Assembly: GCA_958295785.1 (NCBI GenBank)
Contig: OY282377.1
Coordinates: 198,394 to 262,393 of the forward strand
Source: an uncultured Latescibacterota bacterium
GTDB lineage: Bacteria; Latescibacterota; UBA2968
Direction of reading: 5' to 3'
Length of the DNA stretch: 64,000 nucleotides
A program made the translations under genes and the position numbers. Each line of letters starts with the position of its first letter. Within the stretch, counting starts at the first letter, position 1. Positions 1,825 through 55,366 of this stretch are shown here, in pieces. A model generated the notes under the pieces. It saw nothing but the letters and a program-made list of their open reading frames with translations, did not search any database and had not been told where the DNA came from.

Positions 1825-3182
1825 GGCACCCTCCGTCCGAAGAGCGTTCTCAAAGTCGTGCGGGCAATCTCGACCTGCACGAGCGCGTGGTCCGCAACGC
1901 CCTCGCGGGGAAATACGACCGTCTTGAAGCCATCGGATTTGCCCGCGGCCAACCCCTCGCCCTTGCGCGCATCCCCTTGCACCAACACCTCGAGGGTGCG
2001 CCCGACATAAGTCGCGTTTATTTTTTCGGAGATGCAGTTCTGTTGGGCGATCACCGCTTCGAGGCGGCGCCCCTTTTCCTCTTCTGAAACCGTGTCCGGC
2101 ATTTCGCGGAACGCGACCGTGCCTTTGCGCGCGGAATACTTAAACATAAATGCAGAATCGTAACGCACCTGCGCCATCAGCGACAAGGTGGCCTCGAAAT
2201 CGCTTTGCGTTTCCCCGGGAAAACCGGCGATGATATCCGTGCTCAAACACAGATCCGGCATGGCGGCGCGCAAATCATCGACCAAGCCGAGATAGTCGTC
2301 GACCGTATAGCTGCGCTGCATCGCTTTGAGAACGCGATTGGACCCGGACTGCACGGGCAAGTGGATGAACCGACAGATTTTCTTTTCACGCGCCATGGTC
2401 TCGATGACCTTTTCAGAAAAATCGCTCGGATGAGGCGACGTAAAGCGGATGCGGTAAATGCCATCTACGCACGCGACCATCGCGAGCAAATCGGCAAAAT
2501 CGCACGCGCCATCGCGGTAGGAATTGACCGTTTGGCCCAGTAAGGTGACTTCTCGAAAACCCGCATCTGCGGCGGCCCGCGCCTGCCTGACAATCTCGCG
2601 TGCTGGCACGCTGCGCTCTCTGCCGCGCACGTAGGGCACGATGCAAAACGTGCAAAACTTATCGCACCCGCGCATAATGGTGATATAGGCATTGCTACTG
2701 GCTTTGCGGATGGGATCGACGCCCGCATAAAATTCGCCGCGATCCAAGCGCACGTCCAACGCCGCGTCGCCGCGCGCTTCGGCGATGAGGTCGGGCAATT
2801 TGCGGTACGAATCCGGGCCGACGACCAAATCGACGTATGGCGCGTCTTTCATCAGGGATTCGGAAACGTGCTTGGCCATACACCCGGATACGCCCATAAT
2901 CAGGTCTGGCCGCCGATACTTGAGCGCGCGCAACTGCCCCAACCGGCCCCGCACGCGCTCCTCGGCGTGTTCGCGAATCGCGCAGGTATTGAGCACCACG
3001 ACATCGGCATCCTCGGGCCGCTGTGCAGACGCATAACCCGCGTCCTGCAAAATGCCCAGCATCAGTTCCGTGTCCGAGACATTCATCTGGCAACCGTAGG
3101 TTTCAATAAAAACCCGTTGCCCCTGCACGGGGGTGACGGGGATCTCGGGTTGCACACCTTCAATATCGAGCAACGCGCTCAC
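1812..3182 (-). CDS. miaB: tRNA methylthiotransferase MiaB (radical SAM)
   Basis: [17 protein letters not shown]-terminal motif, [11 protein letters not shown] radical-SAM CxxxCxxC, and a TRAM-like C-terminus. Overlaps lipA by 13 nt. Confidence 0.9.
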
Positions 3183-3184
3183 GT

Positions 3185-4312
3185 TTATTTTCCTCGCTGA
3201 TTTATGGCTTCAAGTGCCAAACGCATTTCTTTGATGGCCTCTGCATCGCGTTCGCAGTGCAGGGCCTCGTCTAGAACTTGTTGCGCCTGATCGCCGCCAA
3301 TTTTGCCCAAGGCCCACGCCGCGTGTTGGCGCACGAGCGGTTCGTCGTCTTTGAGGGCATCTGACAATGCGGGCACCTCGGATTGACCGCCCACATTGCC
3401 CAAAGCAATGGCGACATTTCGCAACAAGCCGCGTCGCTTGGCGCGTTTGATCGGGCTGTTTTTGAACCGCTTGGAAAAAGCCGCCTGATCCATGTGCAGC
3501 AAATCGACAAGGCCGGGCGCGTTCAACCCCGGGCGCGCTTGAAACGCATCTTCGGAAGTCGGCTCCGCGTGCTTGTGATTCCACGGGCAAACTTCTTGGC
3601 AAATGTCGCATCCAAAAACCCAGTTGCCCACATCCGATCTCAACGCGCGCGGCACCGCGCCTTTTAATTCAATGGTCAAATAGGAAATACACCGCCGCGA
3701 ATCCACGCGATAGGGTTCTACAATGGCGTCTGTTGGACACGCATCCAAGCACTGCGTACAAGTGCCGCAGTGATCCGGCTGCGGTTGATCGCACTCGAGC
3801 TCGAGATTCAAAATAATTTCGCCTAAAAAAAACCACGATCCCCGGCCTTTGTCGATCAAGCAAGTGTGTTTTCCAAACCAACCCAGCCCGGCGCGTGCGG
3901 CAAAATCGCGCTCCAAAACAGGGCCGGTATCCACGTAAACCCGGCCTTCGGCAGAAGGCTCAATGCGCTGAATTTCGGCCAGCAATTCAAACAGGCGATC
4001 CTCCATCACCGCGTGGTAATCATCGCCGCGAGCATAGCGCGCAATCTGCCCTTTGGGATGACTGCCATTTTCAGACGCATCGCTATCGGGCAGATAATTG
4101 AGGCCCGCGCACAGCACGGATTTTGCGTTTGGAACAATTTGTCGAACATCTGACCGCCGATCCAAATTGCGCCCCAAATACCCCATTTCTCCCGCGTAAC
4201 CCATCCCCAACCACTTTTGATAAAACGCCCAGTGTTGCGGGGGATCTGCCGATGCAATGCCCACGGGATTGAACCCCAAACGCCGCGCCGCGGCTTTAAT
4301 CTGATCGGTCAT
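3185..4312 (-). CDS. queG: epoxyqueuosine reductase QueG (4Fe-4S, C-terminal HEAT-like repeats)
   Basis: CGTCTQCLDACP and CDICQEVCPWN ferredoxin-type motifs; C-terminal VRQHAAWALGKIGG HEAT-like repeat. I place the start at internal ATG 4312 (MTDQIKAAARRLGFNPVGI). The 18 upstream codons of the tracked ORF (to 4366) fall in an interspersed repeat copy. Confidence 0.85.
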   Translation of the reverse strand: MTDQIKAAARRLGFNPVGIASADPPQHWAFYQKWLGMGYAGEMGYLGRNLDRRSDVRQIVPNAKSVLCAGLNYLPDSDASENGSHPKGQIARYARGDDYHAVMEDRLFELLAEIQRIEPSAEGRVYVDTGPVLERDFAARAGLGWFGKHTCLIDKGRGSWFFLGEIILNLELECDQPQPDHCGTCTQCLDACPTDAIVEPYRVDSRRCISYLTIELKGAVPRALRSDVGNWVFGCDICQEVCPWNHKHAEPTSEDAFQARPGLNAPGLVDLLHMDQAAFSKRFKNSPIKRAKRRGLLRNVAIALGNVGGQSEVPALSDALKDDEPLVRQHAAWALGKIGGDQAQQVLDEALHCERDAEAIKEMRLALEAINQRGK

Positions 4313-4324
4313 GCGGGCATTCCA

Positions 4325-4379
4325 ATCCGGACTTTCCAGAGACTGATTTTTCGCGCCAGATACCACCGCAATACACGAC
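4325..4379. repeat. interspersed intergenic repeat, copy A (partial)
   Basis: tccggactttccagagactgatttttcgcgccagataccaccgcaatacacgac aligns by eye with 44265-44318. Its core (tgatttttcgcgccagat) also matches 41899-41926. Confidence 0.6.
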
Positions 4380-4409
4380 TGACATATTTTTTTTCCTTAT
4401 ATCGAGAGA

Positions 4410-4587
4410 TCAAAAATCTCTATTCTTGTACTGGTGTAGCCTTTCAACTGCTTCACGAGGGGTGATGATCGGAATGCCTTCGACGTGGCCGAGGGCCAGC
4501 ATGTCCTTTTTGTCTCCAGAAACGATCAGGTCCGCTCCGCGCGATCAGCGCGCTCACGAGCCCATTGGTGTCAAGAACGATTCGCAC
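4410..4587 (-). pseudogene. PIN-domain toxin remnant (internal deletion plus frameshift)
   Basis: GTG at 4587 gives VRIVLDTNGLVSALIARSG, a PIN N-terminal motif. The frame then breaks, and a frame offset by 1 nt gives LIVSGDKKDMLALGHVEGIPIITPREAVERLHQYKNRDF* ending at 4410. That totals about 59 codons versus roughly 130-140 for intact PIN toxins. The start overlaps the upstream RHH gene end by 17 nt. Confidence 0.7.
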
Positions 4588-4807
4588 GGACGTGGGCCAC
4601 GGCTTCATCGGCGAGGGTCTGGGCATCCTCATCCGAAAGGTGTTTGTTCCGATCCCAGACCATTTCGACAGTCTCCCAGAAGATCGCTTGGCGGACCGCA
4701 CGGTCAACAAAACGGGACAGGTTGTCTTTCTTGCCGCCAGTCCGGGCCAGATAACTCCGAACCGTGCGGTCAGTGTCTTTTGATATGACGATGTTCCATT
4801 GCGTCAT
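4571..4807 (-). CDS. ribbon-helix-helix (CopG-like) antitoxin-type protein
   Basis: 78-aa ORF MTQWNIVISKDTDRTVRSYLARTGGKKDNLSRFVDRAVRQAIFWE... It is small, sits immediately upstream of and overlaps the PIN remnant, which is the typical type II TA layout. Confidence 0.6.
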   Translation of the reverse strand: MTQWNIVISKDTDRTVRSYLARTGGKKDNLSRFVDRAVRQAIFWETVEMVWDRNKHLSDEDAQTLADEAVAHVRANRS

Positions 4808-4956
4808 GAATAGCCTCTGATGACAATGTTTGTCGTTGATTTGAATTTATGCGTCCACAGTCTCTCCGCACGGTGTTAAATCCAAGAGCGTCAAGACAAT
4901 AATCATCTTCGCCTCGGTTTCGGGTTCTGAGCGTCTTTCATATAGATTCTCTCCTT

Positions 4957-4994
4957 TCCAAAAATAAAGGGCAGGACGCAACAATGCCCTGCCC
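4957..4994 (-). terminator. rho-independent terminator after the IscU-like gene
   Basis: 7-bp GC-rich stem GGGCAGG (4969-4975) / CCTGCCC (4988-4994) with a 12-nt loop. On the minus strand it is followed by TTTATTTTTGG. Confidence 0.6.
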
Positions 4995-5002
4995 CGCGGT
5001 TT

Positions 5003-5368
5003 TCAGGTCTGATTGCCGAGCGCCGTGCGAACCGCATCGACCGCTAAATCGGCGGCGTGTTTCCGCGTGGGGGGCAAGCCGCCGAGCGCGGCCTCGATAT
5101 CGGCGCGTGCGATTTTGCCGGCCTCACTGGGCGTTTTGCCCGCCACCCATTCCGTGAGCACAGAACCCGAAGCAATGGTCGCCGCGCATCCCTGCGCCTG
5201 GAAAACCGCTTGATCGATGATGCCGTCTTTGAACGCGAGATGCAGGGACAGGGTGGCGCCCGAAGCGGGATTTTCCGCAAAGCCCATCGCGTCGGGCGCG
5301 TGCAATGTGCCGACATTTCTGGGATGCTCAAAGTGATCCCGCAAAATCGTGGAATAAGCGTCAGCCAT
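5003..5368 (-). CDS. IscU/NifU-N-like protein lacking two of the three cluster-ligand cysteines
   Basis: From ATG 5368: MADAYSTILRDHFEHPRNVG...ENPASGATLSL...QGCAATIASGSVLTEWVAGKT...PPTRKHAADLA. This aligns by eye to E. coli IscU (APACGD / GCGSAIASSS / IHCS). The longer tracked ORF (to 5482) overlaps the rny 3' end. Confidence 0.75.
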   Translation of the reverse strand: MADAYSTILRDHFEHPRNVGTLHAPDAMGFAENPASGATLSLHLAFKDGIIDQAVFQAQGCAATIASGSVLTEWVAGKTPSEAGKIARADIEAALGGLPPTRKHAADLAVDAVRTALGNQT

Positions 5369-5372
5369 GGGA

Positions 5373-7040
5373 TTACGCGCTGGCCTGTGCAGACGTTCTC
5401 GCTCGGTAATCGCGGCGGCGACCATAGCGTTTTTGGGGGGGCGGCTTGCGTTTGCCGGGGCGGCCGGCCAAATTCGAGGCACTGATTTTTCGAATCAGCG
5501 TGACCTGAACCTCGCCCGGGTAGGTCATTTCCTCGCGGACGCGCTCGGCAATTTCATAAGACAGGTCTTTGGCCTGTTCGTCGTTCACTTGCGCGGCATT
5601 GACCAACACGCGCACTTCGCGGCCCGCATTGATGGCATAAGCGTCTCGCACCCCGTCGAAAGATTGCGCGATCTCCTCCAAACCGCGCATCCGCTTGATA
5701 TACGCTTCCGGGTCGTCTCGCCGAGCGCCGGGTCGGGAGGAAGAAATCGCATCGGCCGCTTTGACCAAAAACGAAAGCGGGGTCTCTGCCTCTGCCTCGC
5801 CGTGGTGATAAAAAATTCCGTTGATCACTTCCGGGCCTTCGCCGTATTTGCCGGCCAGATGCGCGCCAATATCCGTGTGCTTGCCCTCGAGTTCCTGATC
5901 CACGGCTTTGCCGATATCGTGCAACAGCCCACAGCGGCGCGCGAGTTTTTCATCCATGTTCAATTCCGCGGCCATTGTGCCGGCCAGAAAAGCCACTTCT
6001 TTGGAATGCCCCAGCACATTTTGTCCAAAGCTCGTGCGGTATTTGAGCTTCCCCACCAGTTTGACCAGTTTGGGATGCAATTCGTCAATGCCCAATTCGC
6101 GCACGGCCCGATGGCCTTCTTCGGCGATGATTGAGTGGGTCTTTTTTTCGCAATTTGCAACAACGGTTTCAATGCGGCTCGGGCTGATGTGGCCCTCGCG
6201 CACCAATTGCTCCATTGCCAGACGCGCCACATCGCGCTTGACCGGATCAAAGCTGGACAAAACAACCGCCTCGGGCGTGTCGTTGACGATCACTTTCACC
6301 CCCGTCGCGGCTTCAAACGCAATGATATTGCGCCCCTCTTTGCCGACAATCCACGCCTTAATATTGTCATTGGGCAATGTGACGACCGATAGGGACGACT
6401 GCACGGTTTGATCCGTGGAACAGCGTTCGATGGCCTGCGCCAGAATTTTTTTGGCTTCGCGGTCGGCTCGTTCGCGGGCGTGGTCGATCATTTCCCGGCC
6501 GATATTTATGGATGTCTGACGCAGCGAATTTCGAATGTCTTTGAGCAACATCTCGCGGGCATGTTCGACATTCATGCCCGAAATGAGCTCTAATTGCGCC
6601 CGTTGCTGATCGATCAAATCGGCCAGTTCCAATTCTCGCTTCTCCAGACGGACGGCTTTTTGCGCGCCCTCTTGTTCCCGCCGCGTCAGGGTTTTTTCGC
6701 GCTGGCTTACAACTTCGGCCCGCTTGACCAGGCTGGTTTCCCTTTCGTGCAGTTCATCGTTTTGACGATCAAACTCGCGCCGTTTTTGATCAAAAGCCTT
6801 TTCAATTTCAGCCTTCTCGTCATACCACTTGTTTTTGATTTCCAAAAAAGTGGCCTTGCGATTTCGATCTTCTTTTTCCGCGAGTTTGATCGCGTGTTTT
6901 TCAGCCTGCTGCTCAATTTCTCGCACCTTTCGCGCTCTGATTCGGGCGCCCAAAAGCCACCCGATTCCAAACAGGGCAATGGCAACCGCCAGAAAGATCC
7001 CATAAGTTGCCATTGGAGCTCCCAGCAATAACGCATCCAT
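5373..7040 (-). CDS. rny: ribonuclease Y
   Basis: N-terminal TM helix, long charged coiled-coil, KH-like segment and HD domain (LLHDIGKA), about 520-555 aa. The start could be ATG 7040 or the nearby MATYGIF. Confidence 0.9.
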   Translation of the reverse strand: MDALLLGAPMATYGIFLAVAIALFGIGWLLGARIRARKVREIEQQAEKHAIKLAEKEDRNRKATFLEIKNKWYDEKAEIEKAFDQKRREFDRQNDELHERETSLVKRAEVVSQREKTLTRREQEGAQKAVRLEKRELELADLIDQQRAQLELISGMNVEHAREMLLKDIRNSLRQTSINIGREMIDHARERADREAKKILAQAIERCSTDQTVQSSLSVVTLPNDNIKAWIVGKEGRNIIAFEAATGVKVIVNDTPEAVVLSSFDPVKRDVARLAMEQLVREGHISPSRIETVVANCEKKTHSIIAEEGHRAVRELGIDELHPKLVKLVGKLKYRTSFGQNVLGHSKEVAFLAGTMAAELNMDEKLARRCGLLHDIGKAVDQELEGKHTDIGAHLAGKYGEGPEVINGIFYHHGEAEAETPLSFLVKAADAISSSRPGARRDDPEAYIKRMRGLEEIAQSFDGVRDAYAINAGREVRVLVNAAQVNDEQAKDLSYEIAERVREEMTYPGEVQVTLIRKISASNLAGRPGKRKPPPQKRYGRRRDYRARTSAQASA

Positions 7041-7263
7041 TGGAGCCTCCTATCAAATTTCAAATCCAATCTTCGATCCATAGCGCGGATATGTTTGACG
7101 GGCCATGCCGAGATGCCCAAAAAAAACTTCCGAACAGACCGCGCCGAGCACAACAGAAAAACAATAGACATCATGGGTTTTCGTCCTTTGGGAACGCATT
7201 TAAGCCCAAAAGAGAGGGACCGCAATACGACCCCTCCCTTATGGCTGTTCGACAAAGCGATGA

Positions 7264-7590
7264 TTAAACGCTGAAAGATTCCCCACAACCACACTGATTT
7301 TTGGCATTGGGATTGTTAAACCGAAACCCCGTGCCCATCAGGCCATCGTCGTAATCCAATTCGGTGTCCGTCAAAAAAAGCGCGCTTTTCATATCGACAA
7401 AGACCCGAATGCCGTGGGCTTTGACAACGCTGTCGTCTTCGCGGACGGCCCCGTCGAAATCGAGTTGATATTGCAGGCCAGAACACCCGCCGCCAATCAC
7501 TTTCAAGCGCAAGCCGTGATCTGCGGGGCGTCCTTCTCTGTGCATGAGTTCTTTGATTTTGCCCGCAGCAATTTCCGTGACGCGAACCAT
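7264..7590 (-). CDS. HesB/IscA-family iron-sulfur cluster insertion protein
   Basis: MVRVTEIAAGKIKEL...GGGCSGLQYQL...NQCGCGESFSV. GGAGG lies upstream of ATG 7590. The tracked ORF extends further into the peroxiredoxin gene. Confidence 0.85.
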   Translation of the reverse strand: MVRVTEIAAGKIKELMHREGRPADHGLRLKVIGGGCSGLQYQLDFDGAVREDDSVVKAHGIRVFVDMKSALFLTDTELDYDDGLMGTGFRFNNPNAKNQCGCGESFSV

Positions 7591-7600
7591 AATACCTCCA

Positions 7601-8080
7601 TTAATCCAATGCTTTGAGACGCGCTTTGATCGCGTCAAAATCGGGCAGAACGGTGGGGTCGTCAGACACGGATGCAAAGCGCACTGTGCCGGTTTTGTCG
7701 ATCACAAAAGCCGAACGCTTTGCCACGCCTCGCAATCCGATCAACTCCTCAAATTGCGCCCCATAAGCCGCGCTGACCTCTTTGTTGAAATCGCTGAGCA
7801 AGGGAATGGCAATGCCTTTTTCCCTCGCCCAGGCCGCTTGGGCAAAGGGACTATCCACGCTGATGCCCAACACCTGCGCGTCGAGCGCGTCATAATCGGT
7901 CAACCCGCCGCTGACCGAACACATTTCATCGGTGCAGACGTCGGTATAAGCCAGCGGAAAAAACAAAATCACGACGTTTTTCCGCCCCTTGTAATCGGTC
8001 AGAGAAATCTCTTTCAAATCGTCGCCAGACTTCGATTTCAGCGTAAAGTCGGGGGCTTGATCGCCTACAGTAATGCCCAT
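7601..8080 (-). CDS. peroxiredoxin (AhpC/TSA family)
   Basis: MGITVGDQAPDFTLKS...FFPLAYTDVCTDEMC peroxidatic-Cys motif. Confidence 0.85.
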   Translation of the reverse strand: MGITVGDQAPDFTLKSKSGDDLKEISLTDYKGRKNVVILFFPLAYTDVCTDEMCSVSGGLTDYDALDAQVLGISVDSPFAQAAWAREKGIAIPLLSDFNKEVSAAYGAQFEELIGLRGVAKRSAFVIDKTGTVRFASVSDDPTVLPDFDAIKARLKALD

Positions 8081-8102
8081 TGTTCGCTTCCTTTGGAAAA
8101 AT

Positions 8103-8714
8103 TCACCGCGCAGCTTCGTAGCGGCGATTCACTTCGTCCCAGTTAATGGTATTCATCCATGCCGCGATATAATCGGGGCGCAAGTTTTGATATTTGAGAT
8201 AATAGGCGTGCTCCCACACATCGAGGCCGAGAATGGGCGTTCCGTCGCCCGTCATGAGCGGGTTGTCTTGATTGGCCGTACTCAAAATATCGAGCTTGCC
8301 ATCTCGCACCACGCACCAGGCCCACCCACTGCCAAAGCGCGTGGTTGCAGCCGTCGCAAATTTTTCATAAGCGGCTTCCCTGCTGCCAAAAGAGGACACA
8401 ATGGCTTCGGCGATTGCGCCCGTGGGCTCGGCCCCGCCATTGGGACTCATAATGGTCCAGAACAAACTGTGGTTGGCGTGGCCGCCGCCATTGTTTTGAA
8501 CCGCCGTGCGGATGTCTTCGGGCACGCTGTCCAAATTGCCGATCAGGCTTTCGATAGACTGATTCGCCAACGCGTCGTGCCCTTCAAGCGCGGCATTGAG
8601 ATTGGTCACATAGGCATTGTGGTGCTTGGAATGGTGAATTTCCATCGTCCGCGCGTCGATATAGGGCTCGAGCGCGTCGTAAGCATAAGGCAGGTCGGGC
8701 AATTGATATGCCAT
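8103..8714 (-). CDS. Fe/Mn superoxide dismutase
   Basis: [36 protein letters not shown]...[12 protein letters not shown]. Confidence 0.95.
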
Positions 8715-8821
8715 TTTGAAACTCCTTGTTTAAGAGATGAACAGGGTGTGGTATTTTGCGAGTGGAGTAAAAATATAATGAACTCTCTTATGGGCGTCAA
8801 GTCCTTATACAAGCCATTTAT

Positions 8822-8865
8822 TTGTCACAACATAAATACTTACAACAACTTGATTTATGTGACAA
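8822..8865. promoter_or_regulatory. imperfect palindrome between panC stop and sod start (operator or U-tract-poor terminator)
   Basis: TTGTCACAACATAAAT - 15 nt - ATTTATGTGACAA. Lies 5 nt downstream of the panC stop and about 110-150 nt upstream of the sod ATG. Confidence 0.3.
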
Positions 8866-8869
8866 AAAA

Positions 8870-9724
8870 TCATTTGACGCGAACCGGCGCGTTGTCTATC
8901 AGGCGCGCCTTGCCAAAGCGCACGGCCACGGCCAGCAAAACGGAATTTTTGAGCACTGCAACAGGCGTGAGGTTTTCCGCATCCACGGCTTCGATATAGT
9001 CGATTTTTGCATGGCACAGTGGCGCGATCACATCGCGCATCGCCGCTACGACCCTCGGCGCGCGCCGTTCGCCTTGCGCGATCATGTTTTTTCCCAGCAT
9101 CAACGCCCGATAAAGCGATGGGGCTTCTCGCCGTTCTTCGGGGCTTAAATAGGCATTCCGAGAACTCATCGCCAAGCCATCCGCTTCGCGCACTGTGGGC
9201 GCCATCAATATCTCCACATCCAAATTGAGATCGCGCACCATCTTTTGAATCACGAGGGTCTGTTGCGCGTCTTTTTGCCCAAAAACAGCCACATGGGGTT
9301 TGACCGCTGCAAACAACTTGGCGACGACCGTGGTCACGCCTTCAAAATGCCCGGGCCGATGCGCGCCACACAGCCCTTCGGTCAGCCGCGCCACCCCGAC
9401 CGTCGTCGCAAAATCCTCGGGATAAATTTCTTTGACCTCGGGCAAATACGCCAGATGCACGCCGCACGGGTCGAGCCGTTCCAAATCGCGCGCCAAATCC
9501 CTGGGATAGGCGGCGAAATCCTCGGCCGGGCCAAATTGCAGTGGGTTGACGAAAATGCTCACCACCACGCGATCCGCCACTTTCCGCGCCCGGCGCACCA
9601 AGCTGAGATGCCCTTCGTGCAAATCCCCCATCGTGGGCACGAGCGCGATGCGCTGCCCGGCTCGTCGCATCTGGTCGGCTTTGCGGTGCATCGCGCGAAC
9701 CGCTTTTACGATTTTGACGGCCAT
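8870..9724 (-). CDS. panC: pantoate--beta-alanine ligase
   Basis: ALVPTMGDLHEGHLSLV and VSIFVNPLQFGPAEDF motifs. Confidence 0.95.
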   Translation of the reverse strand: MAVKIVKAVRAMHRKADQMRRAGQRIALVPTMGDLHEGHLSLVRRARKVADRVVVSIFVNPLQFGPAEDFAAYPRDLARDLERLDPCGVHLAYLPEVKEIYPEDFATTVGVARLTEGLCGAHRPGHFEGVTTVVAKLFAAVKPHVAVFGQKDAQQTLVIQKMVRDLNLDVEILMAPTVREADGLAMSSRNAYLSPEERREAPSLYRALMLGKNMIAQGERRAPRVVAAMRDVIAPLCHAKIDYIEAVDAENLTPVAVLKNSVLLAVAVRFGKARLIDNAPVRVK

Positions 9725-10572
9725 AAGGCTTCCTCGGCGCGCAAATTGAATCGGCGCAATTCCGCGCTTTTGATCTTAAACCGGTGTTTGTCTTGCGGAA
9801 AGCGGTGCGCTTTGACCTCGTTGACATAGCTTGCAAATGCCTGCTGCATCGCGCCTTCGAGGTCCGCGTAGGCTTTGACGAACCGATAGCGGCTTTTGTG
9901 TACGCCCAGCATATCGTGTGCGACCAGCACCTGCCCATCGCACACGCGCCCCGCGCCAATGCCAATGGTCGGGATGGGCACGCGCTCGGTCACAACTTCG
10001 GCCACGCGCTCGGGCACGCACTCCAAAACCACGCCCAGCGCGCCGGCAGATGCCAGGGCATGGGCGTCTTTGAGGACATCGAGCGCGTCTTCTGCGCGGT
10101 CTCCGAACACGGGACGCTTGCCCGTGCGCGTTTGCGGCGTGTACCCCACATGCCCAACTACGGGGATGCCCTCGCGGACGAGTGCCTCAACTTGGCCTAT
10201 CACATTGCGGCCGCCTTCGAGTTTCACCACTTCCGCGCCGGCCAAAGCCAACTGCCGCGCATTTTTGACCGCCTGCGCGGGCGTTTCATAAGACCGGTAG
10301 GGCAAATCCGCCATCAACAGCGCATCGACAACCCCGCGTCGCACCGCGCGCGTGTGGTGGCGCATGTCGCCCATCGTCACCTGTTGCGGGCTGTCGTAGC
10401 CCAACACATTGACGCCCACGGAATCGCCCACAAAAATGACATCGACCCCCGCGCCATCCTGAAAAACAGCCGTGGGGTGATCGTAACACGTCAACACCGC
10501 AATGGGTTCGCCGCGCTGTTTCATAAGGCCGAGGGTCTCTATTTTTACCCGCGCTCCCATAAATAATCCCAT
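9706..10572 (-). CDS. panB: 3-methyl-2-oxobutanoate hydroxymethyltransferase
   Basis: IAVLTCYDHPTA...IFVGDSVGVNVLGY...VKLEGG. Overlaps panC. The exact start is uncertain (an internal ATG is possible). Confidence 0.9.
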   Translation of the reverse strand: MGLFMGARVKIETLGLMKQRGEPIAVLTCYDHPTAVFQDGAGVDVIFVGDSVGVNVLGYDSPQQVTMGDMRHHTRAVRRGVVDALLMADLPYRSYETPAQAVKNARQLALAGAEVVKLEGGRNVIGQVEALVREGIPVVGHVGYTPQTRTGKRPVFGDRAEDALDVLKDAHALASAGALGVVLECVPERVAEVVTERVPIPTIGIGAGRVCDGQVLVAHDMLGVHKSRYRFVKAYADLEGAMQQAFASYVNEVKAHRFPQDKHRFKIKSAELRRFNLRAEEALWPSKS

Positions 10573-10630
10573 CTCGTATCTTCAAACGGACACGGGCCCC
10601 GGGCCCTTTCGCGTCTTTCGCAGTCCCATC

Positions 10631-11320
10631 TCATTTCTCGGCCTCCACCCGCGCTGGCCGATAATAGCGGGTACCCGCCGGAGGCGATTTAATTTGCGCC
10701 AATAAATCCTCCAAATCGCACGGGTGGTTTTCAAAATCGACCTCCGACACATTGACGGCGAGCAACGGCGTTGTCGCATAGTGAAAGAAAAAATGGTTGT
10801 ACGCCTCCAATAACCGCGCGACGTAGTCTTCGGTTATCGCGCTTTCATACCCGCGCCCATGGTTTTTGATGCCCCGCATCAGATGATCAATCGTCGTTTG
10901 CAAATAAATGACCAGATCCGGCCGGGGAATTTTCTCGCTGAGGGTTTCGGCCAAGCGTTCATACAATGCAAATTCCGCATCCCCGAGCGTTAGATTGGCG
11001 TAGATGCGATCCCGTTCAAAGATGTAGTTGCTGACCACCGCCTCTTGAAACAAATCCATCTGATGCAATTCTTGCTGTTGCCGATACCGGCTGAGCATAA
11101 AAAAGACCTGCGTCTGAAAGCCGTATCGCTCTGGGGCTTCGTAAAACAAGGGCAAAAAGGGATTTTCTTCGGGTTCTTCGAGCACCAAACGGGCATTGAG
11201 ATGCTGCCCCAAAACCCGGGCAAACCGCCTCTTGCCCACCCCGGTCACCCCTTCGACAACGATATATCGCACAGCACCCCCCTTGTCCTTATCTTCGCAA
11301 TATTCAATTAGGAGGATCAA
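10631..11320 (-). CDS. deoxynucleoside kinase family protein
   Basis: IVVEGVTGVGKRRFARVLGQHLNARLVLEEPEENPFLPLFY, a P-loop plus dNK-like organisation. Start uncertain. Confidence 0.75.
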   Translation of the reverse strand: MILLIEYCEDKDKGGAVRYIVVEGVTGVGKRRFARVLGQHLNARLVLEEPEENPFLPLFYEAPERYGFQTQVFFMLSRYRQQQELHQMDLFQEAVVSNYIFERDRIYANLTLGDAEFALYERLAETLSEKIPRPDLVIYLQTTIDHLMRGIKNHGRGYESAITEDYVARLLEAYNHFFFHYATTPLLAVNVSEVDFENHPCDLEDLLAQIKSPPAGTRYYRPARVEAEK

Positions 11321-11329
11321 ATCCCAAGT

Positions 11330-11869
11330 TTAGCTGTTTGTCAAGTCGGCGAGAGAGACTGTGGTGCCCACAATTGTTGCGATTTTTATTTTCCTGTACT
11401 GTTCTAAAGAAATGCGGCTCGGCCCAATTTTCACGCGCTGTTTATCGAGTCTCTCGTTCCGCTTTTCTGCGATGATAATATACGTCAGTCGCGTGCGCGC
11501 AATAGAACGCTCGCTTTCAATTTCACAGACGGAAAGGAGATACGCCAAAAAAGGACGCGATCTCCGCAGTTGTTCTTTCGGCCTCTCCTCTTGTGTGAGC
11601 GTCTTTTTCAGTTCGATAAAAACAGCGTGAATGATGCCGTTGCGTTGAACGATCAACAAGTAGTCGCATTGTTGCTTGCGCGGGCCATCCTTTAGAACGG
11701 ATAGGTGGCTAAACTTGCCCAAACGTATCGCGGTAACAGGCTCGGGGCAATGGATCACTTGAACCGCCATCTTTGCTTGGCGTTCTCGCAGGATGATACC
11801 ATCGCTTCCCTCGGCCTTCTCCAGCGCGTTTTCCTTCAGTATATCTTCCAATGTCTCATTCAAAGACAT
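11330..11869 (-). CDS. small PD-(D/E)xK (restriction-endonuclease-fold)-like protein, partner of upstream ATPase
   Basis: ATG 11869 preceded by GGAGG with a 6-nt spacer (MSLNETLEDIL...). The motif QQCDYLLIVQRNGIIHAVFIELKK gives D-x15-E-x-K. The start overlaps the ATPase 3' end (stop 11856-58). Confidence 0.6.
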   Translation of the reverse strand: MSLNETLEDILKENALEKAEGSDGIILRERQAKMAVQVIHCPEPVTAIRLGKFSHLSVLKDGPRKQQCDYLLIVQRNGIIHAVFIELKKTLTQEERPKEQLRRSRPFLAYLLSVCEIESERSIARTRLTYIIIAEKRNERLDKQRVKIGPSRISLEQYRKIKIATIVGTTVSLADLTNS

Positions 11870-13283
11870 GCCCATCCTCCGCTGCCAATCGCGCTGCGAG
11901 TTCATTTGATACGCGGTTAATTTTGTCGATGGTCTCGTCGAAGACCGGCATATCAATGCCGAACCCATCCACGGCGCACCGGCTCAATCCATTTCCTTCC
12001 GCGACGTACGCTCGGATCGAATCTGGATTGAGGAAATCATCCACTTTGTATCCGAGTTTCTCGACGACCTTCGCTTTGTTATCAAAGGATCGGCTCAACA
12101 TGACGAGGTTGTTGATCTCCTTGATGAGATAGTCGCTGTGCGTGGTGATCAAAATTTTCAAACCCGCCCGCACGAGTCTCGCCAGCAAGCGCGCCAACTG
12201 GATTTGGTTGGTCGTATCGAGATGGCTCTCTGGCTCGTCAATGATGAGGAGATGATTCTTCTGCGCGACGTGGCGCAAGAAGAAGTACAAGTCAGACAAG
12301 CCGCGCACTGAAGAGGACGCGGTGTGCAACGGGATGTGAAATCTGCGTTTGCCGCGTGCTTTTGAAATAAATTCGGTATCGTCGCCAGACCTTCGATAAT
12401 AGCCATCCATCATATTCTTGATGTCGTTGAACAACTTGTCTTCGTAAATCTCGCTTTTTCGCCTGAGAAAATCGGATATGTTTCTGGTGTAGTCGATATT
12501 GTCTTTTACGGGAAGGGCGTAGCGACTGGTCGTTTCGTCTATCAAGCGAAACGGAGAAAAGCGGTCCCGGTCTTTGTCGTCTCCCATTTTTTGCAATAAA
12601 TTGACCAGTTGGTTCTTGGTGAAGTCGAGTTCTTTGTAGAACAGCGAGATCCCAAACCGCTCGGCGGAAAGGACGAGCGGATGCGGAAAATCTGGGGATA
12701 GGAGCGATGCGTACAGTCTATAAACTATAGACTGTATTTTCCCATAGTTGATCAGATATTGGGAGGGGGGTTTGTCCACAGAGACGTCGTATCTCGGGAG
12801 AGGGTCTCGTTCTATGACGATATCGCTTCCGTCATAAGCGATTGAAAAATGGCCCTGTTTTCGGGATTGCACATCCGCGGGAAACGCATCGTTGAGTACC
12901 ATTTCAAGGGACGCGCCTTCGAAAGCGGCTTGTGAAGCACTGAACACGTCCGGCAAAATTTGTTTAGAAAAGATCTTCGTCACCCTTTGAAGCATTGCTT
13001 GTCGCGCCTGTTTGAGCCCGTTCCGATCCACGGGTTGCTTTGCCTTGCCCGTTGCCATGAGCGTTTTGACGAGGTGATCGACGTTGGGGGGGATTGAAGT
13101 TGCCAGTTCTCTCCAGATTTTCAAGAAGCCATAGAGCGCGTAGGCCAAATACGTTTTGCCGGTGTTGTTGCGGCCAGCAATTATCGTGAGATCGCCCAGT
13201 TCCATTTCGGCCTCTTTTATGGGGCCGATTTTTTTCAACCGAAATATCGCGGATTGCATGCTGTCTTTCCCATTTGTGAACAT
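11856..13283 (-). CDS. ABC/SMC-like (AAA_15/AAA_21, OLD-type) ATPase
   Basis: Walker A GRNNTGKT, Walker B LLIIDEPESHLD, H-loop-like ITTHSDYLI, and a long insert between A and B. The start is ATG 13283 or ATG 13259 (MQSAIFRLKKIGPI). Confidence 0.8.
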   Translation of the reverse strand: MFTNGKDSMQSAIFRLKKIGPIKEAEMELGDLTIIAGRNNTGKTYLAYALYGFLKIWRELATSIPPNVDHLVKTLMATGKAKQPVDRNGLKQARQAMLQRVTKIFSKQILPDVFSASQAAFEGASLEMVLNDAFPADVQSRKQGHFSIAYDGSDIVIERDPLPRYDVSVDKPPSQYLINYGKIQSIVYRLYASLLSPDFPHPLVLSAERFGISLFYKELDFTKNQLVNLLQKMGDDKDRDRFSPFRLIDETTSRYALPVKDNIDYTRNISDFLRRKSEIYEDKLFNDIKNMMDGYYRRSGDDTEFISKARGKRRFHIPLHTASSSVRGLSDLYFFLRHVAQKNHLLIIDEPESHLDTTNQIQLARLLARLVRAGLKILITTHSDYLIKEINNLVMLSRSFDNKAKVVEKLGYKVDDFLNPDSIRAYVAEGNGLSRCAVDGFGIDMPVFDETIDKINRVSNELAARLAAEDGHVFE

Positions 13284-13319
13284 CCGAGCCTTGTTTGGTC
13301 GATTGCTGACCGCTCTGGC

Positions 13320-14150
13320 CTAAATCCCCGCTTCTCTCCTCGCGCTGTCAAGTGCATTGAAACATCGTTCTGCGACGGGCCAGGGATCGTAGTTGGGCGA
13401 TTTCCAGATTTGGGCCGTGACTTCCACGGTGATGGGGACGGCGATGCCCGCGGCGGCCATGGCTTTGAAATAGGCCACGAGATCCAAGTTGCCTTCGCCG
13501 GGGAGTTGGTAGCGCACCTTGCCATGGGCGCGGTGCCCGTCTTTGATGTGGGTCGAGACTGTGTAGGGCGCGCACAGGTCAACGCTCGTTTGCAGGTCGA
13601 AATGATCGACGTGAAAATGGCTTATGTCGAAATTGACTTTGACGTGGTCGCGATCCGTGTGTCGCATGAGCCAATCGACTTTGTGGGGGGTGTCGAGGGG
13701 GTGGCCCGCGTGGGGCTCAACCGCGAGAATGACATTGTGAGCGGCGGCGCGATCCCCCAGTTCCGCGAGTTGTTCGCAATAGGTGTGTTTGACCGCGTTC
13801 CACGCGCCGGTCAGCCCGCCCAGTGTGCTGACGAGGATGCCGGGGGCATTGCCGTGCGCGAGGTCGCGGGCGAGGATACACGCCGCGTCAAATTTTTCGA
13901 GAATGGCGGGGCGTTCATCGCCCTGCGTGCATATCGGCAACAAGGCCATCGCAACGGGCGATTCAAAGCCCAGGTCCTCGATGGTTTTGGCGAGTGCTTC
14001 GCGGGAACCCGCGTCGAGTTTGTGCGGCGCAGTGGGCCAGTCGTCGCCCGCGTTGATCTCCACGGCCTCATAGCCGATGTCGCGCAAACGCGGCAGGATG
14101 TGGAAAATGTTTTCCGTTTGCATGCCGTAGGTGCCGTATCCGATTTTCAC
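13320..14150 (-). CDS. sugar phosphate isomerase/epimerase (xylose isomerase-like TIM barrel)
   Basis: VKIGYGTYGM...EAVEI...VEPH...ISHFHV pattern. The GTG start at 14150 overlaps the upstream stop (GTGA). Confidence 0.65.
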   Translation of the reverse strand: MKIGYGTYGMQTENIFHILPRLRDIGYEAVEINAGDDWPTAPHKLDAGSREALAKTIEDLGFESPVAMALLPICTQGDERPAILEKFDAACILARDLAHGNAPGILVSTLGGLTGAWNAVKHTYCEQLAELGDRAAAHNVILAVEPHAGHPLDTPHKVDWLMRHTDRDHVKVNFDISHFHVDHFDLQTSVDLCAPYTVSTHIKDGHRAHGKVRYQLPGEGNLDLVAYFKAMAAAGIAVPITVEVTAQIWKSPNYDPWPVAERCFNALDSARREAGI

Positions 14151-54060: not shown

Positions 54061-54879
54061 CTATTCCTCCACCACTCGCGGACGCTTAAATTCTTTTTTG
54101 AAAAGCGAATCGACTGTGGCTTGAAGGGTCATCAGTGTTTGCTGATGGTTGTCAGCGCGTCGCGCGAGGCGTTTGGCTGTTTCGGCGATTTGGAGCGCGT
54201 TTTTGGCATTGTCTTGTGCGCGTTTGAAATCGTTTCTCAGCGTTGCGAGTTGTCGATTTTGGGTATCCAGCCGCTCGTTGGCGCGGTCGAGATTTTGTCG
54301 GGTATTTCGCAATATTTCGCGGCTTTTGGCATGCTGTTTTTTCTCGTCCGCGAGTTGTTTTTGGGTGGATGCGCGAAGCGATCTCTCGGTGTGGAGGCTG
54401 TCCCGATAAGCGAGGCGCGCCTGCGTTTCCCGCTTGAGTTCGCCTTGGGTGAGGCGCAATGCCTCGCGTGTAGAGTCGCGCTCTTGCCGCGTGCGCCGAT
54501 GGTGGGCGATCTCGTTGGACAACTTGCCGCGCACCTCCACTTCCGATCCGGTCAGGACGGCTTTTTCATTGATTTGCGACATGAGACGGTCGGTTTGTTC
54601 GCCGAGGCGTGTGCGAAAAGCCGCGAGTTCTTGCTGGAATCGCGCTTGCGTGTTTTCAAGCGTTTGCCCTTGGCGCGTGAGGGAGGTTTGCAAGACCAAG
54701 ATCAGAAAGATGGTGACCGTGACCGATGCGTAGCCCAAAAAGCCGTAGAGCCACCGGGCTTCGATGCGAAAAAAGGATTTGTCTTCCGTTTTGACGCGCT
54801 CTGAAACGTGAAATACAATGTACACACCCACGCCGATCAGAATGAGCGCGCCGAGTGTGGAGAGGATGATAATTTTCAT
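54061..54879 (-). CDS. membrane-anchored coiled-coil protein (2 TM + about 190-aa R/Q/E-rich coiled coil)
   Basis: MKIIILSTLGALILIGVGVYIVF and WLYGFLGYASVTVTIFLILVLQT helices, followed by heptad-like RQ/E/L-rich sequence. Lies 38 nt downstream of the PIN-like gene. Confidence 0.55.
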   Translation of the reverse strand: MKIIILSTLGALILIGVGVYIVFHVSERVKTEDKSFFRIEARWLYGFLGYASVTVTIFLILVLQTSLTRQGQTLENTQARFQQELAAFRTRLGEQTDRLMSQINEKAVLTGSEVEVRGKLSNEIAHHRRTRQERDSTREALRLTQGELKRETQARLAYRDSLHTERSLRASTQKQLADEKKQHAKSREILRNTRQNLDRANERLDTQNRQLATLRNDFKRAQDNAKNALQIAETAKRLARRADNHQQTLMTLQATVDSLFKKEFKRPRVVEE

Positions 54880-54917
54880 AACGATCTCGGGATTAGGGGT
54901 CAGGGGCACGTAGTCAA

Positions 54918-55364
54918 TTAAGGACAAGTATCTCTGGTCAGTAGGTGTTTGTGCCTCGCGCTTTGATATACTTTGCCGCCGACCAGATTGCGGTTCTTAA
55001 AATCCCGGTGCAATTTGCGGTCGGCCCCTCTTTGGGTTATTGGGTTATAGCCGACGATAAGTACTTTCGCGTTTGCGACCATAGCCAATGCAATAATGTG
55101 CTCGTCATCTGATTCTATTCGTCCTTTGAGTTCATCCGCTTTTTGTTGCACATCTTGGGCGGAAACCAATTTGAGTTTACCGGCTTGACTCAGTTCCGTC
55201 ATTCGAGCTTTCATTCCGCCTCTTTCCCATTCTTCTCTAAATTTATTGGTATCTGAGTAAACGATTTTCCCGGATCTTCTGAGCCAGTCCCGCACGGGCT
55301 GCATCTCCTCATTGCTCAAATTCTTAAAGTTACCAAAACAATTGGCATCTAAAATAACGCACAT
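54918..55364 (-). CDS. PIN-like domain protein
   Basis: MCVILDANCF... (first acidic residue) and ESDDEHIIALAMVANAKVLIVG (acidic cluster plus helix-strand), about 148 aa. The ATG lies 2 nt after the ATPase stop. Confidence 0.55.
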   Translation of the reverse strand: MCVILDANCFGNFKNLSNEEMQPVRDWLRRSGKIVYSDTNKFREEWERGGMKARMTELSQAGKLKLVSAQDVQQKADELKGRIESDDEHIIALAMVANAKVLIVGYNPITQRGADRKLHRDFKNRNLVGGKVYQSARHKHLLTRDTCP

Positions 55365-55366
55365 AA

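What the first reader, a model, noticed from the sequence alone, without database searches (positions are those of the whole stretch)
11330..13283. Low-GC two-gene cassette: ABC/OLD-type ATPase plus small PD-(D/E)xK-like protein (candidate uncharacterised defence system)
**Seen in sequence**
- A 475-aa ORF carries Walker A GRNNTGKT, Walker B LLIIDEPESHLD, H-loop-like THSDYLI and a long insert between A and B. That is the SMC/ABC-like AAA_15/21 layout.
- Its stop (11856-58) is overlapped by a 179-aa ORF starting at ATG 11869, behind GGAGG.
- The small protein contains QQCDYLLIVQRNGIIHAVFIELKK, i.e. D-x15-E-x-K, the restriction-endonuclease-fold signature.
- Hand-counted G+C is 24/60 in each of two sampled lines inside the cassette (12421-12480, 12721-12780), versus 35/60 in the adjacent gene (13381-13440).
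- The pair is wedged, with 9-nt and 36-nt spacers, between a deoxynucleoside kinase gene and a sugar operon.

**Established knowledge**
- ABC-type ATPase plus a separate nuclease is the layout of PARIS (AriA + TOPRIM AriB) and Septu (PtuA + HNH PtuB).
- Gabija and OLD fuse such an ATPase to a TOPRIM domain.

**Inference**
- This looks like the same sensor-ATPase/effector-nuclease logic with a PD-(D/E)xK effector.
- I do not recognise it as a named system.
Basis: partly seen in the sequence, partly recalled or inferred. Interest (0 to 1): 0.8.

Follow-up and report, generated by a model that had tools for sequence, protein, structure and literature searches.

The report
PD-T4-4-type phage defence gene pair
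This is a real two-gene anti-phage cassette, an ATP-driven sensor protein plus a small nuclease, but it belongs to a family already named and tested in E. coli (PD-T4-4, related to WonAB of Vibrio cholerae), so it is a divergent new member and not a new system.

Summary
A 475-aa OLD/ABC-type ATPase gene (11856-13283, minus strand) overlaps by 14 nt a 179-aa gene (11330-11869, minus strand). The small protein has an invariant D69...E86-x-K88 motif.

- The ATPase matches PADLOC's PD-T4-4_A model full-length (E 5.9e-110) and PDC-M47A (6e-97).
- The small protein matches PDC-M47B (1.5e-8) and PD-T4-4_B (5.5e-6).
- Profile comparison aligns its D/ExK/Q motifs with PD-T4-4_B-type proteins from E. 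coli, E. albertii and a Vibrio phage.

PD-T4-4 was shown to defend E. coli against T4 (Vassallo 2022). Its relative WonAB acts by abortive infection and needs both ATPase and nuclease residues.

Supporting context:
- All 56 genomic loci with a B homologue carry A directly upstream.
- The cassette is absent from the same site in the two closest Latescibacterota genomes.
- Its G+C is 49.6% against 56.4% for the window.
- In several relatives the pair sits between Type III mod and res genes.

Verdict: a new, divergent member of a known kind. Interest is low to moderate. The trigger and the nuclease target are unknown for the whole family.

The parts
11856..13283 (-). Gene A: 475-aa OLD-family ABC ATPase (PD-T4-4_A type). 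An alternative start at ATG 13259 (M9) is possible.
   Evidence: ORF. Pfam AAA_15 3.3e-22 and AAA_21 5.2e-12. PADLOC PD-T4-4_A PDLC04033 5.9e-110 full-length and PDC-M47A 6.4e-97. Foldseek best hits are PtuA of Septu and retron-Septu, E about 4e-8. Most homologues align from residue 14.
13152..13175 (-). Walker A / P-loop GRNNTGKT (res 37-44)
   Evidence: G37, N39, K43 and T44 are invariant across 17 sequences, including E. coli, E. albertii and Vibrio-phage homologues.
12657..12659 (-). R209 in SAERFGISLF, the likely counterpart of the Q-loop position
   Evidence: Invariant. Its equivalence to WonA R182, whose mutation abolishes WonAB defence (PMC12137116), is my inference from motif order and spacing, not from an alignment.
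12300..12320 (-). ABC-signature-like motif ASSSVRG (res 322-328)
   Evidence: S323 and S325 are invariant.
12228..12251 (-). Walker B LLIIDEPE (res 345-352)
   Evidence: I348, D349, E350, P351 and E352 are invariant.
12129..12146 (-). H-loop TTHSDY (res 380-385)
   Evidence: T380 to Y385 are invariant.
11330..11869 (-). Gene B: 179-aa small nuclease-like protein (PD-T4-4_B / PDC-M47B type), a divergent restriction-endonuclease fold
   Evidence: ORF. PADLOC PDC-M47B 1.5e-8 and PD-T4-4_B 5.5e-6. hhalign to B proteins of PD-T4-4-type pairs gives probabilities of 95, 92.5, 90 and 71%. AF2 model pLDDT 87. No Pfam or NCBIfam match.
11606..11665 (-). Putative catalytic core D69 ... E86-L-K88 (CDYLLI...FIELKK)
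   Evidence: C68, D69, E86 and K88 are invariant in 30 homologues of 35-70% identity. In the model D69 precedes strand 70-76 and E86/K88 lie in strand 79-90, followed by a helix and a further strand, which is the PD-(D/E)xK topology.
11558..11575 (-). Conserved helix motif EQLRRS (res 99-104) after the ExK strand
   Evidence: Q100, L101, R103 and S104 are invariant. The motif aligns with IQLENS / IQIENS / KQLSAT of E. albertii, E. coli and Vibrio-phage B proteins.
11856..11882 (-). Gene junction: GGAGG (11880-11876), B start ATG 11869-11867, A stop TGA 11858-11856, with a 14-nt overlap
   Evidence: Sequence. In 56 related loci B follows A on the same strand with only a few nt of gap or overlap.
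13284..13319 (-). 36-nt spacer between the sugar-phosphate isomerase-like gene (stop 13320) and A: upstream edge of the variable segment
   Evidence: Related genomes L060 and L061 have isom directly followed by dNK.
11273..11329 (-). 57-nt spacer between the B stop and the dNK start (GTG 11272): downstream edge of the variable segment

Best explanation
The cassette is a two-gene anti-phage defence operon of the PD-T4-4 / WonAB kind, carried as a horizontally mobile 2-kb unit in a Latescibacterota chromosome.

**Components**
- Gene A encodes an OLD-family ABC ATPase. It has a complete set of nucleotide-binding motifs and long inserts.
- Gene B is translationally coupled to A. It encodes a small, very divergent PD-(D/E)xK-fold nuclease with D69, E86 and K88.

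**Proposed mechanism (inferred from the characterised relatives, not shown here)**
- A dimerises head-to-tail around ATP and holds B on its conserved C-terminal region.
- A cue produced during phage infection, after DNA replication has begun, changes the ATPase state and licenses B.
- B then cuts a nucleic acid. The target is more likely an RNA of the translation apparatus than bulk DNA.
- Phage development stops at the cost of the infected cell (abortive infection).

**What is shown**: family membership, motif conservation, obligate A-B pairing, and patchy low-GC distribution next to other defence genes.

**What is inferred**: complex formation, the trigger, the target and the abortive outcome.
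For: **Family membership**
- PADLOC: A matches PD-T4-4_A at 5.9e-110 full-length and PDC-M47A at 6.4e-97. B matches PDC-M47B at 1.5e-8 and PD-T4-4_B at 5.5e-6.
- Plasmid and phage pairs that score up to 2e-258 / 5e-107 on the PD-T4-4 models have the same layout, an ATPase of about 460-480 aa followed by a protein of about 200 aa.
- Their B proteins align with this B family through the D, (D/E)xK and Q motifs.

**Motifs and fold**
- All ATPase motifs are invariant from this clade to the E. coli, E. albertii and Vibrio-phage proteins.
- B's D69, E86 and K88 are invariant in 30 homologues. They sit on a beta-beta-alpha-beta core in a confident model (pLDDT 87).
- The A model's nearest solved structures are defence ABC ATPases: PtuA of Septu and retron-Septu, and retron Eco8.

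**Genomic behaviour**
- 56 of 56 loci with B have A directly upstream. A and B identities co-vary (rho 0.63).
- The cassette is absent at the same isom-dNK junction in the two closest genomes.
- Cassette G+C is below the flanks in 50 of 51 loci.
- Neighbours in other genomes include Type III mod/res, GmrSD, Uma2, Hma, MADS and DISARM-type genes.

**Literature**
- PD-T4-4 defends E. coli against T4 (PMC9519451; bioRxiv 2025.07.10.664194).
- It forms higher-order complexes and shows no DNA cleavage in vitro.
- WonAB needs the WonA ATPase residues and WonB K71, acts by abortive infection and blocks translation without DNA degradation (PMC12137116).
Against: - No experiment exists on this protein pair or on any member of its clade.
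- B's match to the PD-T4-4_B models is weak and partial (24 bits, residues 65-133). Its best PADLOC match is to the untested candidate PDC-M47B.
- A is only 25-33% identical to the E. coli, E. albertii and Vibrio-phage proteins.
- The actual ECOR58 prototype sequences could not be compared directly.
- Foldseek finds no significant structural neighbour for B (best E 0.03 against PDB, 0.003 against BFVD). The nuclease fold therefore rests on topology, motifs and a weak enrichment of PD-(D/E)xK proteins among the top hits.
- In this window the cassette sits among housekeeping genes, not in a defence island.
- The RNA target is extrapolated from WonAB and other OLD-family systems.
Confidence: 0.8

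Rival explanations
1. It belongs to a sister family (PADLOC candidate PDC-M47) that shares only superfamily-level ancestry with PD-T4-4. It may differ in trigger, target or even role, so the defence function validated for E. coli PD-T4-4 cannot simply be transferred.
For: - B's best PADLOC hit is PDC-M47B (1.5e-8), ahead of PD-T4-4_B (5.5e-6).
- A scores nearly as well on PDC-M47A (323 bits) as on PD-T4-4_A (367 bits).
- Identity to enterobacterial pairs is 25-33% for A and undetectable by tblastn for B.
- The clade has its own conserved B motifs, CDYLLI / ELKKT / EQLRRS.
Against: - Proteins that score very highly on the PD-T4-4 models (E. albertii, E. coli, Bernardetia) also hit the PDC-M47A and PDC-M47B models. 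The two model sets therefore describe overlapping parts of one family.
- Gene order, sizes and all catalytic motifs are the same.
Confidence: 0.12
2. It is an accessory module of restriction-modification systems, not a free-standing defence system. Examples would be a helper that loads, regulates or backs up a Type III enzyme. The copy in this window would then be an orphan remnant.
For: - In L011, L019, L025, L026 and L027 the pair lies between a Type III-like mod gene and a ResIII res gene on the same strand.
- A Type III methyltransferase model hits the upstream neighbour in 6 loci.
Against: - Only 9 of 56 loci have that mod/res pair nearby.
- Most loci, the plasmid and phage copies, and this window lack it.
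- PD-T4-4 and WonAB protect on their own when cloned.
- Embedding of independent defence genes inside other systems is a known pattern (bioRxiv 2024.01.29.577857).
Confidence: 0.04
3. It is a housekeeping DNA-repair or chromosome-maintenance ATPase-nuclease pair (RecF/RecN/SbcCD-like), or a toxin-antitoxin addiction module with no antiviral role.
For: - ABC ATPases of the SMC/RecF type give weak Pfam hits (SMC_N 1.5e-4, below cut-off).
- The cassette sits between housekeeping genes here.
- Overproduced WonB is toxic.
Against: - The pair is absent from the closest relatives at the same site.
- Its G+C is low relative to the host almost everywhere.
- It occurs on small plasmids and in a P2-like phage between repressor and integrase.
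- The best matches are all to defence ATPases.
- For WonAB a simple toxin-antitoxin mechanism was excluded experimentally.
Confidence: 0.04

Closest known systems
PD-T4-4 (Vassallo et al. 2022, E. coli ECOR58; PADLOC PD-T4-4_A/B)
   Same: - Two-gene operon: an AAA_15/AAA_21 OLD-type ABC ATPase of about 460-480 aa, followed by a protein of about 180-210 aa with remote PD-(D/E)xK similarity.
- Total length 1,954 bp here against 1,973 bp in ECOR58.
- A matches the PD-T4-4_A HMM full-length at 5.9e-110.
- The authors' HHpred profile of PD-T4-4B shows only weak PD-(D/E)xK hits around one short region. B here behaves the same way.
- Both are carried on mobile or variable DNA.
   Different: - Sequence is distant: 25-33% for A against enterobacterial and Vibrio-phage pairs. 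B is recognisable only by profile methods.
- The host is an uncultured Latescibacterota, and the clade is spread over many phyla of uncultured bacteria.
- No integrative element, integrase or repeats are visible around this copy.
- No experimental data exist for this clade.
- The ECOR58 protein sequences themselves were not available for direct comparison.
WonAB (WASA-1 prophage, Vibrio cholerae; Adams et al. 2025, PMC12137116)
   Same: - Same logic and gene order: an OLD-like ABC ATPase plus a small variant PD-(D/E)xK nuclease.
- K43, R209, E350 and H382 are invariant here. I take them to be the counterparts of the residues shown essential in WonA (K34, R182, E300, H333), from motif order and similar spacing.
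- K88 of ExK is likewise taken as the counterpart of WonB K71.
- The authors state that WonAB resembles PD-T4-4.
   Different: - WonA and WonB sequences were not on hand, so the residue equivalences are my inference and not an alignment.
- The authors note differences between WonAB and PD-T4-4 in the ATPase inserts, the C-terminal extension and sometimes the nuclease.
- WonAB is prophage-borne behind a regulator gene. No conserved third gene is seen here.
Septu (PtuA-PtuB) and retron-associated PtuAB
   Same: - An ABC ATPase with a separate nuclease partner.
- PtuA chains are the best structural matches to the A model (E about 4e-8, probability 1.0).
- PtuA HMMs hit A weakly (7e-9).
   Different: - The partner is an HNH nuclease, not a PD-(D/E)xK protein.
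- TM-scores are low (about 0.3).
- The sequence HMM scores are far below those for PD-T4-4_A.
PARIS (AriA-AriB), OLD and Gabija GajA
   Same: OLD-family ABC ATPase sensor controlling a nuclease. AriA HMM 4e-24, Old 1.6e-10 and GajA about 1e-9 on A.
   Different: The effector is a TOPRIM domain, separate in PARIS and fused in OLD and GajA. B has no TOPRIM features.

Membership tests
PD-T4-4 | Component A is an OLD-type ABC ATPase (AAA_15/AAA_21) matching the PD-T4-4_A profile over its full length | tested here: met
   PDLC04033 at E 5.9e-110, residues 14-463 on profile positions 3-455 of 460. PDLC04032 at 1.7e-72. Pfam AAA_15 and AAA_21 are above their cut-offs.
PD-T4-4 | Component B matches the PD-T4-4_B profile | tested here: inconclusive
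   - Only partial, weak matches: PDLC04036 at 5.5e-6 (residues 65-133) and PDLC04034 at 6.5e-6. The best match is PDC-M47B at 1.5e-8.
- Profile-profile comparison with B proteins of pairs that do score strongly on PD-T4-4_B gives probabilities of 95, 92.5, 90 and 71%, with the catalytic motifs in register.
- Whether PADLOC or DefenseFinder would call the system with their own thresholds was not run.
PD-T4-4 | A and B are adjacent, on the same strand, with A first | tested here: met
   14-nt overlap here. 56 of 56 related loci have A immediately upstream of B. The order is the same on E. coli, E. albertii and Bernardetia plasmids and in a Vibrio phage.
PD-T4-4 | Intact ATP-binding and hydrolysis motifs in A | tested here: met
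   Walker A, R209, signature-like SSS, Walker B DEPE and H-loop TTHSDY are invariant across 17 and 43 sequences.
PD-T4-4 | PD-(D/E)xK-type active site in B | tested here: met
   D69, E86 and K88 are invariant and sit on consecutive strands followed by helix and strand in the AF2 model. The fold match to solved nucleases is not significant. The motif and topology criterion is therefore met, but structural confirmation is lacking.
PD-T4-4 | Sequence relationship to the ECOR58 prototype proteins RCO57999.1 and RCO57988.1 | not testable with these tools
   The prototype sequences are in none of the collections I could query. A DNA search of complete E. coli genomes with a related plasmid pair found only plasmid copies.
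PD-T4-4 | Confers phage resistance when expressed | not testable with these tools
   Shown for the E. coli system only.
WonAB | OLD-like ABC ATPase plus small variant PD-(D/E)xK nuclease, both catalytically required | not tested
   The architecture is the same and the presumed equivalent residues are conserved.
Septu | PtuA ATPase partnered with an HNH nuclease PtuB | tested here: not met
   B has no HNH match in Pfam or PADLOC. PtuA HMMs hit A only at 7e-9, although PtuA is the nearest solved structure.
PARIS / OLD / Gabija | TOPRIM nuclease domain, fused or as a partner | tested here: not met
   No TOPRIM match in A or B. AriA, Old and GajA HMMs hit only the ATPase motif regions of A.

The most novel reading that the evidence does not exclude
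The clade found here has its own B signature (CDYLLI / ELKKT / EQLRRS). In the genome collection it occurs only in metagenome-assembled genomes from many phyla: Latescibacterota, Poribacteria, Binatia, Caldilineaceae, Vicinamibacterales, Entotheonella and others. By my own knowledge, not checked here, this looks like a marine-sponge-type community. The clade may be a functionally distinct subtype of the PD-T4-4/WonAB superfamily that is exchanged within that community. It is repeatedly embedded between Type III mod and res genes, which would suggest functional coupling between restriction and an ATPase-controlled abortive nuclease.
Probability: 0.2. Interest if true: 0.5.

Novelty: new member of a known kind. 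Interest (0 to 1): 0.25.

Why it matters
- For annotation, two 'hypothetical / AAA family ATPase' genes of an uncultured Latescibacterota become a recognisable defence operon. The same applies to 56 loci found in other genomes.
- The comparison supplies a clean list of invariant residues for a poorly characterised family whose trigger and target are still unknown. In A these are K43, R209, S323/S325, D349/E350 and H382. In B they are D69, E86, K88, Q100, R103 and S104.
- It also shows a recurrent mod-A-B-res arrangement that could guide experiments on cooperation between restriction and abortive systems.
- It does not reveal a new kind of system.

Tried and rejected
- **Pfam and NCBIfam for B:** no match.
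- **PDB sequence searches:** only generic ABC transporters for A, and nothing for the B profile even at E 10.
- **Foldseek of the B model against PDB and BFVD:** nothing significant. There was only a weak enrichment of PD-(D/E)xK nucleases (Upx, BsmI, Bse634I, FokI, hantavirus endonuclease, R2, UL24, Mrr), which I do not count as a fold identification.
- **tblastn of B against plasmids:** no match.
- **Search for the ECOR58 prototype:** a blastn search of complete E. coli genomes with a related plasmid pair found only plasmid copies. Krishnan et al. 2020 is not held in the library.
- **Signs of a mobile element around the cassette:**
  - No flanking direct or inverted repeats beyond chance.
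  - No tRNA.
  - No integrase called next to it, and no remnant of A or B in the empty sites.
  - The mechanism of gain or loss stays open. A more distant Latescibacterota genome (L001) carries a 65-67% identical pair at the same place after the isom orthologue. A simple 'recent insertion' is therefore not the only reading.
- **Regulatory and RNA elements:** promoter and terminator scans were not above shuffled expectation. There were no Rfam matches in 10-15 kb.
- **Alternative start for B:** the longer 212-aa reading (ATG 11968) is rejected, because homologues and an independent gene call start at MSLNETLE.
Full report
**Observation**

A runs 13283 to 11856 on the minus strand (475 aa). B runs 11869 to 11330 (179 aa). 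GGAGG lies 7 nt before B's ATG, and A's TGA lies inside B, giving a 14-nt overlap. An independent gene call on a 99%-identical ENA contig gives the same two products.

The quoted motifs are present. Three details need correction:
- D69 and E86 are separated by 16 residues, not 15.
- The cassette's G+C is 49.6%, against 56.4% for the window and 58-61% for the neighbouring sugar, panB and panC genes. This is about two standard deviations low, and 5.5% of equal-sized windows are as low or lower. It is not the 40% suggested by the two hand-counted lines.
- The downstream dNK gene most likely starts at GTG 11272, as in its orthologues, so the spacer after B is 57 nt and not 9 nt.

**What it is**

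- **Pfam.** AAA_15 and AAA_21 are found in A and nothing in B.
- **PADLOC.** A matches PD-T4-4_A (PDLC04033) over its whole length at E 5.9e-110, the candidate PDC-M47A at 6.4e-97, and a second PD-T4-4_A model at 1.7e-72. AriA, Old, GajA and PtuA models hit only at 1e-24 to 1e-8. B matches PDC-M47B (1.5e-8) and three PD-T4-4_B models (5.5e-6 to 3e-4), each only partially.
- **Reference pairs.** I retrieved pairs with the same layout from an E. coli Col-type plasmid, an E. albertii conjugative plasmid, a Bernardetia plasmid and a P2-like Vibrio phage. In the phage the pair sits between repressor and integrase. These pairs score up to 2e-258 (A) and 5e-107 (B) on the PD-T4-4 models. They also hit the PDC-M47 models, so the two model sets overlap.
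- **B-family profile.** A profile of 30 B homologues aligns with the four reference B proteins at 71-95% probability. CDYLLI / ELKK / EQLRRS falls on CDLVLI / D(Q/L)KSK / IQLENS and their equivalents.
- **ATPase motifs.** Every nucleotide-binding motif is invariant from this clade to the enterobacterial and phage proteins, despite 26-33% identity. These are G37/N39/K43/T44, R209, S323/S325, D349-E352 and T380-Y385.
- **B conservation and model.** C68, D69, E86, K88, Q100, R103 and S104 are invariant. The AF2 model is confident (pLDDT 87, pTM 0.86). It places D69 at the head of one strand and E86/K88 in the next, followed by a long helix and another strand.
- **Structure searches for B.** Foldseek gives no significant neighbour for B. 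The weak hits are mostly PD-(D/E)xK nucleases. This mirrors the weak HHpred list that the discoverers published for PD-T4-4B.
- **Structure searches for A.** The A model (pLDDT 75) is closest to PtuA of Septu and retron-Septu complexes and to retron Eco8 (E about 4e-8). No solved structure of a close relative exists for either protein.

**Genomic behaviour**

- A scan of one genome per species found 56 loci encoding a B relative. All 56 have an A homologue immediately upstream on the same strand, although a few A copies look degraded.
- A and B identities to the window co-vary (Spearman 0.63). A is the more conserved partner, with mean identity 53% against 40% for B.
- The hosts are all metagenome-assembled genomes: Latescibacterota, Poribacteria, Binatia, Caldilineaceae, Vicinamibacterales, Entotheonella, Dadabacteria and others. 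From my own knowledge this mix is typical of marine sponge or coral microbiomes. I did not verify the sample origins.
- The B family comprises 788 clusters (50% identity) at E <= 1e-3 in 1.84 billion representatives. A's wider family has more than 3,700 members at E <= 1e-10.
- The window itself is Latescibacterota. Its two closest genomes (about 87-93% protein identity) have the same fggy-gfo-phyH-isom-dNK-panB-panC order, with no trace of A or B between isom and dNK.
- A more distant Latescibacterota genome carries a 65-67% identical pair, again right after the isom orthologue. The site is therefore polymorphic, but gain versus loss is unresolved.
- No repeats, tRNA or integrase mark the edges.
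- In 50 of 51 loci the cassette is lower in G+C than its flanks, by 10 points on average.
- Neighbours elsewhere are enriched in defence genes:
  - Type III methyltransferase upstream in 6 loci.
  - ResIII downstream in 10 ORFs.
  - Uma2, GmrSD, Hma, MADS and DISARM-like genes in others.
- In five loci the order is mod-A-B-res on one strand.

**How it probably works**

The published evidence on relatives is as follows.
- PD-T4-4 was isolated from E. coli ECOR58 by selection with T4, validated after cloning, and listed as 'ATPase, nuclease' on an ICE-like element (PMC9519451).
- An independent study confirmed defence against T4. It found higher-order A-B complexes and no DNA cleavage in vitro, and it suggested a missing cue or an RNA target (bioRxiv 2025.07.10.664194).
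- The authors of the WonAB study relate it to PD-T4-4 and to the 'OLD-ABC ATPase + novel REase' operon of Krishnan et al. 2020.
- WonAB needs the ATPase residues of WonA and K71 of WonB.
- WonAB acts after phage DNA replication has begun, arrests translation without degrading DNA, and is abortive (PMC12137116).
- P2 OLD has recently been reported to be a tRNase (bioRxiv 2026.07.10.737580).

By analogy I propose an ATP-dependent A dimer that holds and licenses B on sensing infection. B then cuts a nucleic acid, more likely RNA than DNA, and aborts the infection. Membership and motif conservation are shown here. Complex formation, the trigger, the target and the outcome are inferred.

**Comparison and verdict**

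The claim that the system is unnamed is not supported.

- Membership of PD-T4-4 is met for A, for gene order and for the motifs.
- Membership is inconclusive for B at the level of the PADLOC B profiles, although B is supported by profile-profile alignment.
- The prototype sequences and the phenotype could not be tested.
- Septu and PARIS/OLD/Gabija are related only through the ATPase. Their defining nucleases (HNH, TOPRIM) are absent.

I classify the finding as a new, divergent member of a known kind. Interest is low to moderate. The clade-specific features, namely its spread across uncultured phyla and its embedding in Type III systems, are the only parts that might repay further work.

Noticed in passing
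window 54061-56670 (-): A second low-GC (about 47-50%) cassette. It has an AAA_21/AAA_15 ABC ATPase in ORF 55367-57019, whose real start is probably near 56670, just after the sulfatase gene. PADLOC gives NsnB 3.9e-40 and PDC-M55A 4.6e-35. Two overlapping downstream ORFs follow (54918-55370, 150 aa; 54061-54927, 288 aa) with no Pfam or PADLOC match. It is possibly another ABC-ATPase defence operon with unrecognised partners.
   Followed up: partly
window 59453-60508 (-) and 61963-63018 (-): Two 351-aa DDE transposase ORFs (DDE_Tnp_1), apparently two copies of one IS element. They bracket the lowest-GC part of the window (minimum 45.8% near 60.4 kb) and an unassigned 177-aa ORF at 60895-61428.
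   Followed up: no
L011, L019, L025, L026, L027 (about 3000-12300 in each locus): In these Binatia, Latescibacterota and Caldilineaceae genomes the A-B pair is embedded between a Type III-like methyltransferase (860-1030 aa) and a ResIII restriction/helicase subunit (about 930-957 aa), all on one strand. 9 of 56 loci have this mod/res pair nearby.
   Followed up: partly
L001:3985-8540 (Latescibacterota OZ241986.1): A 65-67% identical A-B pair follows the orthologue of the same isom gene (80% identity) and fggy (84%). The rest of the neighbourhood differs, and dNK lies elsewhere in that genome. The closest relatives of the window lack the pair at this site, so this is either a hotspot or an old insertion with later losses.
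   Followed up: partly
L002/L012 (OZ242010.1), L014/L027 (OY761159.2), L030/L031 (CAXXLQ010000004.1): Three genomes carry two separate copies of the A-B pair at distant positions. A few loci (L011, L013, L019, L041) have a truncated or split A gene next to an apparently intact B.
   Followed up: no
L140:2995-5026 (Vibrio phage 1.202.O, NC_048066.1): A P2-like temperate vibriophage carries a homologous ATPase plus 209-aa pair between its repressor and integrase genes, a typical prophage defence-cargo position. The phage A protein is 29.5% identical to the window's A. The phage B aligns with the window's B family at 90% probability.
   Followed up: partly
literature (bioRxiv 2026.07.10.737580, introduction): That preprint describes the PD-T4-4 effector as an HNH nuclease. 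The discoverers' HHpred table, two other papers and the sequences examined here all point to a PD-(D/E)xK-type protein instead.
   Followed up: yes
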